From Minisyncoccia bacterium (GTDB lineage: Bacteria > Patescibacteriota > Minisyncoccia > UBA6257 > 2-01-FULL-56-20): a DNA stretch of 64,000 bases. Positions 56,588-58,140 of the stretch are shown in pieces. The notes under the pieces were generated by a model. It saw nothing but the letters and a program-made list of their open reading frames with translations. It made no database searches and was not told where the DNA came from. Position 1 is the stretch's first letter. Each line of letters begins with the position of its first letter. A program made the position numbers and the translations under genes. The stretch covers positions 18,777 through 82,776 of the forward strand of contig JBEKBG010000002.1 in the NCBI GenBank assembly GCA_050015515.1. The letters are read 5' to 3'.

Positions 56588-58140
56588 TTCAGGCGTTATC
56601 TTTTATCAGAGGATTTGATCCTGGTCCAGGATGAATGCTGGCGGTGTGGATAAGGCATGCAAGTCGAGCGGAATTTATTTTGAAGAAGTTGCGATTACAT
56701 CAAGACAACGGATTTATAAATTTAGCGGCGAACGAGTTAGTAACACCCTGGTACGTACCTCGAAGACGGGGATAGCTCATCGAAAGGTGAGGTAATACCC
56801 GATAATCTCGCAAGAGAAAAGTCGTAAGACGCTTTGAGATCGGCCTAGGTCCGATCAGCTAGTTGGTAAGGTAACGGCTTACCAAGGCTATGACCGGTAG
56901 GGGAGGTGAGAGCCTGACCCCCAACGACGAGACTGAGACACGGCTCGTACTCCTACGGGAGGCAGCAGTCGAGAATATTCGACAATGGGCGAAAGCCTGA
57001 TCGAGCGACACCGCGTGTAGGATGAAGGCCTTCGGGTCGTAAACTACGGTAGTATGATAAGAATGCAAATGACTGTCATACGGAAAGAGGTGGGTAACTA
57101 CGTGCCAGCACCAGCGGTAATACGTAGACCTCAAGCATTATCCGGATTTATTGGGCGTAAAGAGCATGTAGGAGGTTTCGCGCGTCTTTTGTTAAAGCCC
57201 ACCGCCTAACGGTGGAAGTGCAGGAGATACGGCGGAACTAGAGGAGGTTAGAGGTGCATGGAACTCACGGTGTAGGGGTGAAATCCGTTGATATCGTGGG
57301 GAACACCAAAGGCGAAGGCAGTGCACTGGGACCTTCCTGACTCTGAGATGCGAAAGCGTGGGGAGCAAAAAGGATTAGATACCCTTGTAGTCCACGCCCT
57401 AAACGATGCCTGTTTGCTGTTTCGAGTATCGACCCTCGGAGTGGCGTAGCTAACGCGTTAAACAGGCCGCCTGGGAAGTACGGCCGCAAGGCTAAAACTC
57501 AAAGGAATAGACGGGGACTCGCACAAGCGGTGGAACATGAGGTTTAATTCGTCAGTAAGCGAGGAACCTTACCAAGGTTAGAAATCTATGATGAAAGCCG
57601 GTGGAAACATTGGCCCTCTCACAAGGACATCATGGACAGGTGCTGCATGGTTGTCGTCAGCTCGTGCTTTGAAGTGTTCCCTTAAGTGGGGTAACGAGCG
57701 CAACCCCTATTACGCGTTACATGTGTCGCGTGAAACTGCCCCGCCCAAAGTTCACAAAAATAATTTTGCGAATTTCGGGCGGGGAGGAAGGAGGGGATGA
57801 CGTCAAATCCGCATGGCCCTTTGATACCTTGGGCTACACTCGTGTTACAATGGTCGGGACAATGGGTTGCCAACGCGTAAGCGGGAGCTAATCCCATCAA
57901 ACCCGGCCCCAGTTCGGATTGAGGGCTGAAACCTGCCCTCATGAAGCCGGAATCGCTAGTAATCGCAGATCAGCCACGCTGCGGTGAATACGTTCTCGAG
58001 TCCTGTACTCACTGCCCGTCAAGCCAAGGGAGCCGGTAGTAGGTGAAATATCACTTCGGTGGTATTAACTTAAGATCGGTAACATGGGCTAAGTCGTAAC
58101 AAGGCACGCGTAGCGGAAGCTGTGCGTGGATCAATTAAAC
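56588..58140 (+). rRNA. 16S ribosomal RNA (divergent; 3' end lacks CCUCC)
   Basis: 5' AGAGGATTTGATCCTGGTCCAGGATGAATGCTGGCGG…GCATGCAAGTCGAGCG; 806-region GGATTAGATACCCTTGTAGTCC; 1100-region AACGAGCGCAACCC; 3' AAGTCGTAACAAGG-(h45 with GGAA loop)-GGATCAATTAAAC; flanking precursor stem 56484-56507 / 58224-58246. Confidence 0.9.

What the first reader, a model, noticed from the sequence alone, without database searches (positions are those of the whole stretch)
58081..58140. 16S rRNA 3' end lacks the anti-Shine-Dalgarno CCUCC
Alignment to the E. coli 3' terminus is unambiguous through AAGUCGUAACAAGG, helix 45 with its GGAA loop, and GGAUCA. Where CCUCCUUA is expected, the sequence reads AUUAAACU. 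Consistently, about 55 of about 60 genes here have no SD (typical upstream: AAAATATG, ACAATG). Only three (hom, the ORF at 4393-4707, and the HTH gene at 44162-44410) have a GGAGG-like box, which may be coincidental. The organism apparently initiates translation without SD:anti-SD pairing.
Basis: partly seen in the sequence, partly recalled or inferred. Interest (0 to 1): 0.7.

Follow-up and report, generated by a model that had tools for sequence, protein, structure and literature searches.

The report
16S rRNA lacking anti-Shine-Dalgarno sequence

Summary
The 16S gene (56603-58141, Rfam 1360 bits, full length) aligns cleanly through helix 45 and GGAUCA. It then reads AUUAAACU where CCUCCUUA is expected. 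No CCUCC occurs in the roughly 1 kb downstream, and the pre-rRNA is closed by a leader/trailer stem at 58223-58249.

Genes here show no Shine-Dalgarno signal. 16% of 73 start regions pair with the canonical tail, against 21% of random windows. The same pipeline gives 79% against 16% in E. coli. Nothing complementary to the real tail is enriched either.

The organism is a Parcubacteria/Paceibacterota member. Its 16S is 98% identical to a soil MAG, and uL30 is absent from the ribosomal protein operon. Loss of the anti-SD in a Parcubacteria subgroup is already published (Tsurumaki et al. 2022 RNA; PLoS One 2024, PMC10783764). This is therefore a new member of a known kind.

Points that may go beyond those two papers:
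- The replacement tail AAUUAAACU is near-invariant in 26 distinct 16S 3' ends, and conservation collapses immediately after it.
- The CCUCC-less genomes form one derived clade in rough trees.
- Relatives that still carry CCUCC also lack SD motifs, though the sample is small.

Initiation probably relies on unstructured A/U-rich start regions, leaderless mRNAs and translational coupling. That mechanism is inferred, not shown.

The parts
56603..58141 (+). 16S rRNA gene, full length, not followed by a 23S gene
   Evidence: Rfam RF00177, 1360 bits, model positions 1-1533. The next features are a response-regulator gene at 58272 and tRNA-Leu at 59080.
58105..58128 (+). Helix 45 (10-bp stem with GGAA tetraloop)
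   Evidence: cmscan structure line and alignment. Also predicted by cofold.
58129..58133 (+). GAUCA linker. With G58128 it corresponds to E. coli GGAUCA 1529-1534.
   Evidence: Alignment to the Rfam consensus.
58134..58141 (+). AUUAAACU: the 8-nt tail occupying the place of CCUCCUUA (E. coli 1535-1542). Predicted single-stranded. Near-invariant in related species.
   Evidence: Conservation is at least 80-90% per position through ...AAUUAAACU in 26 distinct sequences, then drops to about 40%.
58144..58166 (+). Trailer hairpin 1 (CUAUAAAAA...UUUUUAUAG). Variable in sequence among relatives, with the pairing kept.
   Evidence: cofold. Alignment shows substitutions that keep the pairing in L101, L003, L043, L119 and L068.
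58172..58222 (+). Trailer hairpin 2. Its pyrimidine tract CUUUCUUCU pairs internally with GAGGGAGG. It is not an anti-SD.
   Evidence: cofold.
58223..58249 (+). Trailer strand of the precursor-closing leader/trailer stem (conserved UUGGGACAACUAAAAAGCUCUU)
   Evidence: 27 intermolecular pairs with 56481-56507. The sequence is conserved across the clade.
56481..56507 (+). Leader strand of the precursor-closing stem
   Evidence: cofold.
20304..30305 (+). Ribosomal protein operon (L3...S5, L15, SecY) whose genes lack SD motifs. uL30 is absent between S5 and L15.
   Evidence: Pfam. Upstream sequences and duplex energies.
58245..58274 (+). Example of a leaderless-looking start: TAGAAT box ending 6 nt before the ATG of the response-regulator gene at 58272
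   Evidence: Sequence only; no TSS data.

Best explanation
The window comes from a Parcubacteria/Paceibacterota (Patescibacteria, CPR) genome. Its only visible 16S rRNA has lost the anti-Shine-Dalgarno core. The eight nucleotides after GGAUCA read AUUAAACU instead of CCUCCUUA. mRNAs correspondingly carry no Shine-Dalgarno motif, so 30S-mRNA base pairing through the rRNA tail does not position the start codon (shown at sequence level).

Start-site selection is instead inferred to rest on three things:
(i) Start regions that are A/U-rich, G-depleted and weakly structured.
(ii) Leaderless or very short-leader mRNAs for promoter-proximal genes.
(iii) Termination-reinitiation coupling in tightly packed operons.

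The loss is a clade property rather than a peculiarity of this genome. Because CCUCC-retaining relatives already lack SD motifs, SD disuse probably came first and the anti-SD then decayed.
For: Missing anti-SD.

No SD signal:
- 16% against 21% random (window) compared with 79% against 16% (E. coli).
- GGAG at -18..-5: 5 against 28.
- Curated 35 genes, including EF-Tu, EF-G, 20 ribosomal proteins and SecY: mean dG -1.3, against -7.2 for 28 genes of the E. coli ribosomal protein operons; Mann-Whitney p = 1e-10.
- The sliding duplex profile is flat in the window. E. coli has a trough of -6.2.

No alternative pairing. k-mers complementary to the real tail are not enriched:
- Window: 23 observed against 29.8 expected.
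- Pooled same-tail sources, 182 genes: 42 against 45.3 for 5-mers and 13 against 13.1 for 6-mers.

Taxon:
- 16S is 98.3% identical to MAG MFD01112.bin.1.8, 95.8% to the complete chromosome OY970354.1, and 88% to Ca. Liptonbacteria.
- uL30 is absent at its canonical place.

Clade property: among the 94 related 16S 3' ends recovered, most lack CCUCC. The CCUCC-less ones form one derived clade in rough NJ trees.

Mechanism hints:
- MFE of -30..+30 is -6.7 against -14.1 kcal/mol for interior windows. In E. coli it is -9.6 against -13.1.
- G falls to 8-14% at -7..-1 in most positions.
- -10-like hexamers are concentrated so that their last base lies 6-15 nt before the ATG: 19 hits against 3 in E. 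coli.
- Half of the same-strand intergenic spacers are <= 24 nt.

Literature:
- The anti-SD motif is detected in only 48% of Parcubacteria (PMC9297842).
- Ca. Wolfebacteria and Ca. Campbellbacteria are listed as SD-scarce and lacking CCUCC (PMC10783764).
Against: - The mature 3' end has not been mapped.
- Only about 64 kb was analysed, perhaps 8% of a genome of roughly 0.8 Mb. My ORF starts are heuristic.
- A few ORFs (hom, 4707, 44410, 30517, 56266-, 59443-) do carry GGAGG-like boxes, although at chance frequency.
- The strong conservation of the replacement tail shows it is not simply decaying, so the tail may keep some role.
- The leaderless and coupling components rest on sequence patterns in an A/T-rich context, without TSS or ribosome-profiling data.
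- The claim that SD disuse preceded anti-SD loss rests on 48 genes from 11 short loci and on unbootstrapped NJ trees.
Confidence: 0.85

Rival explanations
1. The anti-SD was changed rather than lost. The conserved tail AAUUAAACU pairs with a new A/U-rich upstream motif (such as UUUAAUU), giving an altered-specificity SD:anti-SD pair.
For: The tail is as conserved as the rRNA body in 26 distinct sequences. ATTAAT and TTAAT are mildly over-represented upstream: 8 against 2.4 in the window, and 26 against 12.7 in the pooled set. PMC10783764 describes organisms that show binding without a conserved CCUCC.
Against: k-mers complementary to CAAUUAAACUA are not enriched upstream. For 5-, 6- and 7-mers the counts are 42 against 45.3, 13 against 13.1 and 5 against 3.2; in the window, 23 against 29.8. 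TTAAT shows no positional peak. The duplex-energy profile with the real tail is flat and no better than with shuffled tails. An all-A/U 5-7 bp helix would also be very weak.
Confidence: 0.05
2. A canonical anti-SD exists elsewhere. It could sit in a second 16S copy in the genome, or in a downstream exon or longer mature tail joined after removal of an intervening sequence.
For: CPR rRNA genes often carry insertions; L099 has an insertion of about 985 nt in its 16S. Only 64 kb of the genome is visible.
Against: There is no CCTCC in the 1 kb downstream. The leader/trailer stem closes the precursor 82 nt after the tail. Rfam finds no intron or second SSU in the window. The same tail occurs in 26 distinct sequences, including complete chromosomes. 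The genes lack SD motifs, so a canonical tail would have nothing to pair with.
Confidence: 0.03
3. The 16S copy is a pseudogene, or the 3' end is an assembly or chimera artefact.
For: None specific. It is considered only because metagenome assemblies often break or misjoin at rRNA genes.
Against: The covariance-model match is full length and high scoring, with intact helices. The 16S-trailer-response regulator-tRNA-Leu synteny is conserved at 90-92% identity in independent assemblies L101, L043 and L003; L119 matches through the 16S and trailer until its locus ends. Substitutions keep the trailer hairpin paired, which indicates a functional, evolving locus.
Confidence: 0.02

Closest known systems
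Anti-SD-less subgroup of Parcubacteria (Tsurumaki, Saito, Tomita, Kanai 2022, RNA 28:1041; PMC9297842)
   Same: Same superphylum and group. The CCUCC(U) motif is missing at the 16S 3' end. The authors infer that SD helices do not form. The CPR hallmark of uL30 absence is also seen here.
   Different: In the passages I retrieved by term search, the paper reports motif presence or absence only (48% detection in Parcubacteria). I found no mention there of the replacement tails, their conservation or mRNA-side SD usage, but I did not read the whole paper. It links the loss to uL1-lacking lineages, which cannot be checked in this window.
[quoted passage not shown] Wolfebacteria, Ca. Campbellbacteria, SR1 and Peribacter
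   Same: Neither the CCUCC core nor evidence of SD:anti-SD binding is present. Two of the listed taxa are Parcubacteria.
   Different: Those are other lineages. This window belongs to a Liptonbacteria-related soil/peat lineage (88% 16S identity to Ca. Liptonbacteria).
Anti-SD loss in Flavobacteriia, insect endosymbionts (Carsonella, Sulcia, Hodgkinia and others) and hemotropic mycoplasmas (Lim, Furuta, Kobayashi 2012, MBE; PMC3457768)
   Same: CCUCC is lost and SD-like sequences are lacking. In Flavobacteria SD disuse is seen regardless of anti-SD presence, which parallels the CCUCC-retaining Parcubacteria here.
   Different: In those groups the core mostly degenerated by C-to-U/A substitutions and often varies within a group. 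Here the whole 8-nt tail is replaced by a sequence that is itself strongly conserved across a clade.
Bacteroidota ribosomes with a sequestered anti-SD and Kozak-like A-rich start contexts
   Same: SD-independent initiation with A-rich, G-poor upstream regions.
   Different: Bacteroidota keep the CCUCC and hide it with ribosomal proteins. Here the sequence is gone.

Membership tests
Bacterial SSU rRNA (Rfam RF00177) | Full-length covariance-model match above the gathering score | tested here: met
   1360 bits against a gathering score of 50, model positions 1-1533.
Bacterial SSU rRNA (Rfam RF00177) | Helix 45 with GGAA loop followed by GGAUCA | tested here: met
   58105-58133.
Bacterial SSU rRNA (Rfam RF00177) | CCUCC anti-SD core at E. 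coli positions 1535-1539 | tested here: not met
   AUUAA occupies those positions. No CCTCC occurs within 1 kb downstream.
Anti-SD-less, SD-scarce Parcubacteria (PMC9297842; class iv of PMC10783764) | Phylogenetic placement in the Parcubacteria/Paceibacterota group | tested here: met
   16S identity is 98.3-91.6% to MAGs titled Paceibacterota, 'uncultured bacterium' or 'bacterium', and 88% to Ca. Liptonbacteria (Parcubacteria group in NCBI taxonomy). The window nests inside that clade in rough NJ trees.
Anti-SD-less, SD-scarce Parcubacteria (PMC9297842; class iv of PMC10783764) | No CCUCC(U) motif in the 16S 3' tail | tested here: met
Anti-SD-less, SD-scarce Parcubacteria (PMC9297842; class iv of PMC10783764) | No enrichment of SD:anti-SD pairing upstream of start codons | tested here: met
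   16% against 21% random, with the E. coli control at 79% against 16%. Curated genes. Pooled relatives.
Anti-SD-less, SD-scarce Parcubacteria (PMC9297842; class iv of PMC10783764) | CPR ribosome hallmark: uL30 absent | tested here: met
   S5 ends at 28459 and L15 starts at 28497. There is no ORF or L30 domain between them.
Anti-SD-less, SD-scarce Parcubacteria (PMC9297842; class iv of PMC10783764) | Reported overlap with uL1-lacking lineages | not testable with these tools
   No uL11, uL1 or uL10 gene was seen among the window ORFs annotated with Pfam.
Altered-specificity SD:anti-SD systems (binding without a conserved core, class iii of PMC10783764) | Position-specific enrichment upstream of starts of a motif complementary to the organism's own 16S tail | tested here: not met
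   No enrichment of tail-complementary 5-7-mers and a flat duplex-energy profile.
Bacteroidota-type SD-independent initiation | Anti-SD retained in the rRNA but unused or sequestered | tested here: not met
   The anti-SD is absent. The CCUCC-retaining sister lineages may fit this type.
Leaderless-dominated translation (as in many Actinobacteria, Deinococcus and Archaea) | Transcription starts at or within a few nt of the start codon, with a -10 box at a fixed short distance from the ATG | tested here: inconclusive
   -10-like hexamers (>= 5/6 match) concentrate so that their last base lies 6-15 nt before the ATG: 19 hits, against 17 over the 39 positions further upstream and 3 in E. coli. The A/T-rich context confounds this, and no TSS data exist.

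The most novel reading that the evidence does not exclude
The 16S 3' tail was not merely allowed to decay after SD use ceased. In the large CCUCC-less Parcubacteria clade it was replaced by subclade-specific sequences that are under strong purifying selection (AAUUAAACU here; UUAAUUCAAUGUGAAA, UUAAUUCCAAAUUGGAAA and UUAAUUACACUUAAGUCG in sister groups). That would imply a new, still unknown job for the tail in an SD-free ribosome. Candidates are a docking site for a protein or factor, a determinant of 3'-end maturation, or an intramolecular partner. AAUUAAAC is the exact reverse complement of the universally conserved 16S segment 954-961, GUUUAAUU.
Probability: 0.2. Interest if true: 0.6.

Novelty: new member of a known kind. 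Interest (0 to 1): 0.3.

Why it matters
SD:anti-SD pairing is the textbook mechanism of bacterial start-site selection. Whole clades that have deleted the rRNA half of it are natural experiments on how ribosomes find start codons without it. They also matter in practice: gene callers and expression designs that assume an RBS will mis-set starts in these genomes. For this window the phenomenon is already documented at group level, so the direct finding adds one more lineage.

The comparative by-products are modest leads rather than discoveries:
- A single derived CCUCC-less clade.
- SD disuse also in CCUCC-retaining relatives.
- Strongly conserved replacement tails.

They make a concrete question testable in the one cultured relative group (Minisyncoccus, Paceibacteria): what does the 16S tail do once it no longer binds mRNA?

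Tried and rejected
(1) The downstream pyrimidine tract CUUUCUUCUCUUU (58176-58188) as a displaced anti-SD. Rejected: it lies inside a trailer hairpin, pairs with GAGGGAGG, and is not conserved outside the genus.

(2) An alternative SD complementary to the real tail. Rejected: no enrichment.

(3) AAAGGA, the most over-represented upstream 6-mer (6 against 0.5), as an SD remnant. It abuts the start codon with zero spacing at L2, L3 (provisional GVG start call), the LysRS-like gene and PGK, and sits at SD-like spacing only in hom. In the zero-spacing cases it cannot act as a conventional SD. It is absent from the top of the enriched k-mer lists in the pooled relatives. Left unexplained.

(4) Pairing of the tail with 16S 954-961. 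It is not shared by sister tail classes, and by my recollection 954-957 are paired in helix 30. Kept only as a note.

(5) Literature searches for 'anti-Shine-Dalgarno' plus 'Patescibacteria' gave nothing. The relevant papers were found through 'Shine-Dalgarno' plus 'Candidate Phyla Radiation' and 'anti-SD' plus 'Parcubacteria'.

(6) My first NJ tree kept only 28 sequences because the 5' anchor was too strict. I redid it on the 3' 718 columns with 58 sequences. Neither tree is bootstrapped.

(7) The uL1, bS21 and bS1 status of this genome could not be examined, because none of those genes was found in the window.

(8) The metagenome-contig scan was not used. Contig ends at the conserved/variable boundary would not distinguish mature RNA ends from assembly breaks.

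Full report
**1. The observation**

Rfam's bacterial SSU model matches window 56603-58141 (+) over its whole length (model 1-1533, 1360 bits). Re-scanning the 3' part shows the terminal alignment at maximal posterior probability:
- AAGUCGUAACAAGG, 58091-58104.
- Helix 45, CACGCGUAGC/GGAA/GCUGUGCGUG, 58105-58128.
- GAUCA, 58129-58133.
- AUUAAACU, 58134-58141, opposite the consensus CCUCCUUu.

There is no CCTCC, and not even CCTC, between the tail and the next gene. There is no CCTCC on the + strand up to 59200. Co-folding leader and trailer gives a 27-bp stem between 56481-56507 and 58223-58249. This is the usual precursor-closing helix, so the mature 3' end must lie within 58134-58222.

That interval contains the single-stranded tail and two local hairpins (58144-58166 and 58172-58222). 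The pyrimidine tract in the second hairpin is paired internally. A hidden exon or a longer mature tail carrying a canonical anti-SD is therefore excluded as far as sequence can exclude it.

**2. The mRNA side**

I called genes with a codon-usage ORF caller (73 ORFs) and ran the identical pipeline on 50 kb of E. coli K-12 containing the ribosomal protein operons (L001) as a positive control.

| Measure | Window | E. coli control |
|---|---|---|
| -20..-1 regions reaching dG <= -4.5 kcal/mol with ACCUCCUUA | 16% (random windows 21%) | 79% (random 16%) |
| GGAG starting at -18..-5 | 5 | 28 |
| Fisher test on the first row | p = 2e-13 | |
| Curated genes, mean dG | -1.3 (35 Pfam-supported genes with ATG starts) | -7.2 (28 annotated genes of the S10/spc/alpha operons) |
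| Curated genes reaching -4.5 | 11% | 93% |
| Sliding duplex-energy profile | flat from -40 to +32 | trough of -6.2 at -16..-13 |

The curated window set includes EF-Tu, EF-G, 20 ribosomal proteins and SecY; Mann-Whitney p = 1e-10.

Three of the four window 'hits' in the curated set are AAGGA abutting the ATG with zero spacing. They cannot act as a conventional SD.

Besides hom, 4707 and 44410, they include 30517, 56266(-) and 59443(-). The frequency equals the random expectation.

**3. Is the anti-SD changed rather than lost?**

k-mers complementary to the real tail are not enriched upstream of starts:
- Window: 23 genes observed against 29.8 expected for 5-mers.
- Pool of 182 genes from 26 same-tail sources: 42 against 45.3, 13 against 13.1 and 5 against 3.2 for 5-, 6- and 7-mers.

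TTAAT and ATTAAT are mildly over-represented but have no positional peak. The duplex profile with the real tail is no better than with shuffled tails. I reject an altered-specificity pair.

**4. Who is it?**

A scan of one genome per species for the lineage-specific variant of the 1392-1408 region (GTACTCACTGCCCGTCA) returned 119 loci. Of these, 94 carry 16S 3' ends, nearly all titled Patescibacteria, Parcubacteria or Paceibacterota, or carrying uninformative or apparently mislabelled MAG titles.

16S identity of the window to related loci:

| Locus | Source | Identity |
|---|---|---|
| L101 | MFD01112.bin.1.8 | 98.3% |
| L043, L119 | | about 97% |
| L003 | complete 829-kb chromosome OY970354.1 | 95.8% |
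| L045 | Ca. Liptonbacteria nzgw432 | 88% |

Synteny around the 16S is conserved. Liptonbacteria sit in the Parcubacteria group in NCBI taxonomy. The ribosomal protein operon (L3...S5, L15, SecY) has no uL30 gene between S5 and L15, which is the CPR hallmark. The identical EF-Tu occurs in several JGI and ENA metagenome contigs.

**5. Comparison with what is known**

- Tsurumaki et al. 2022 (PMC9297842) report that the anti-SD motif is found in only 48% of Parcubacteria. The motif-less lineages overlap the uL1-lacking group, and SD helices presumably do not form there.
- A 2024 survey (PMC10783764) lists Ca. Wolfebacteria and Ca. [quoted passage not shown]
- Lim et al. 2012 (PMC3457768) established the same for Flavobacteriia, insect endosymbionts and hemoplasmas. 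They showed that in Flavobacteria SD disuse is independent of anti-SD presence.

The finding is therefore a further member of a described kind, not a new phenomenon.

**6. What the comparison adds**

(a) Tails fall into discrete classes:
- Canonical GGAUCACCUCCUUUCU.
- A CCUCA variant clade.
- UCUCC and UCGCC singletons.
- Several CCUCC-less classes: AAUUAAACU (the window's class), UUAAUUCAAUGUGAAA, UUAAUUCCAAAUUGGAAA, UUAAUUACACUUAAGUCG and others.

(b) In rough NJ trees rooted on E. coli, the CCUCC lineages are basal and paraphyletic. Nearly all CCUCC-less sequences form one derived clade that contains the window. L091 is a separate loss.

(c) Within the window's class (26 distinct sequences, down to about 78% 16S identity), conservation stays at 80-100% through ...GGAUCAAUUAAACU. 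It falls to about 40% at the very next positions. After that come a variable hairpin whose pairing is kept through substitutions and, much further on, the conserved trailer strand of the processing stem. The sharp boundary suggests that the 8-9 nt tail is retained in the mature rRNA and is under selection. This differs from the C-to-U/A decay described for endosymbionts.

(d) Genes next to CCUCC-bearing 16S genes in this group also lack SD motifs: 12% against 20% random, and 10% with a 4-mer core (48 genes). This suggests that SD disuse predates loss of the anti-SD. Points (b) and (d) rest on small samples and simple methods.

**7. Mechanism (inferred)**

- Start regions are A/U-rich and G-poor. 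G is 8-14% at most positions from -7 to -1, in a window of about 52% G+C.
- Start regions are much less structured than gene interiors: MFE of -30..+30 is -6.7 against -14.1 kcal/mol. In E. coli it is -9.6 against -13.1.
- -10-like hexamers cluster so that their last base lies 6-15 nt before the ATG (19 hits against 3 in E. coli). Examples are TATAAT-7 nt-ATG at 18089, TAGAAT-6 nt-ATG at 58272 and TATAAT-8 nt-ATG at 60326. This fits leaderless or very short-leader mRNAs.
- Half of the same-strand spacers are <= 24 nt and five overlap. This fits termination-reinitiation within operons.

Going by their titles and abstracts (I did not read them), two papers report that local lack of structure can permit start selection without SD pairing (PMC3121790, PMC7043885). 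None of this is shown experimentally for this organism.

**8. Verdict**

The novelty is low because the group-level loss is published. The open and mildly interesting question is why the replacement tail is so strongly conserved.

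Noticed in passing
window 58133-58140 and 57542-57549: The tail AAUUAAAC is the exact reverse complement of GUUUAAUU, the universally conserved 16S segment 954-961 by my own count of E. coli numbering. The chance of such an 8-mer match somewhere in the 16S is about 0.02-0.03. From the tail sequences, sister tail classes share only the AAUU part of it.
   Followed up: partly
window 58005-58021: The decoding-centre region reads GUACUCACUGCCCGUCA, that is A1396U (58009) and C1400U (58013) relative to the bacterial consensus. The same variant occurs in at least 94 Patescibacteria 16S genes, both with and without CCUCC. 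It would defeat the universal 1392/1406 primers.
   Followed up: partly
window 57102-57123: The 530-loop region reads GUGCCAGCACCAGCGGUAAUAC instead of ...CAGCAGCCGCGG... (G524C and C526A by my count). It lies in the 505-507/524-526 pseudoknot and mismatches primer 515F. Compensation on the 505-507 side was not checked properly.
   Followed up: no
window 58142-59161: The 16S is unlinked from any 23S or 5S gene. It is followed by a response-regulator gene (58272-58649), bL19 (58672-58974) and tRNA-Leu(GAG) (59080-59161). This arrangement is conserved in L101, L043 and L003.
   Followed up: partly
window 28459-28497: There is no uL30 gene between uS5 and uL15 in the ribosomal protein operon (37-nt spacer). 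This is the CPR hallmark.
   Followed up: yes
window 21838-21846, 34343-34351, 41434-41442 (also 20298-20306): AAGGA abuts the start codon with zero spacing at L2, the LysRS-like gene and PGK, and at the provisional GTG start of L3. AAAGGA is the most over-represented upstream 6-mer in the window (6 against 0.5 expected). It is absent from the top of the enriched k-mer lists in pooled relatives. Unexplained.
   Followed up: partly
window 54052-54777 (-): This class-I release factor is only 241 aa. The PCRF match starts at profile position 100 of 194, so the N-terminal domain is missing.
   Followed up: no
window 31095-32282 and 51921-53003: Two tandem adenylate-kinase genes follow SecY. A third, longer ADK-domain protein lies 20 kb away. 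After SecY-adk-adk-map the operon does not continue into infA, L36, S13, S11, S4, rpoA and L17.
   Followed up: no
L019, L027, L028, L032, L037, L051, L104, L116 (16S 3' ends): A Patescibacteria clade, several members of which are titled 'uncultured Gammaproteobacteria', has the tail GGAUCACCUCAUUUAGAGGA. This is a CCUCA variant of the anti-SD. The 31 adjacent genes show no SD-like motif. L074 has UCUCC and L108 has UCGCC.
   Followed up: partly
L099 about 4631-5616: The 16S of a Minisyncoccia MAG (SPRUCE 501) is interrupted by an insertion of about 985 nt near window-16S position 779. CPR rRNA genes often carry insertions like this.
   Followed up: no
window 56669-56715 and about 57725-57785: The 16S has lineage-specific insertions: about 37 nt in the helix 6 region, and a hairpin (cccgccc...gggcggg) that is missing or different in more distant relatives.
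   Followed up: no
window 58167-58173 and relatives: A short GUCGA(A/G)C motif recurs downstream of the 16S tail in many Parcubacteria trailers, including those with a canonical anti-SD, after a variable hairpin. It could be a processing signal.
   Followed up: no
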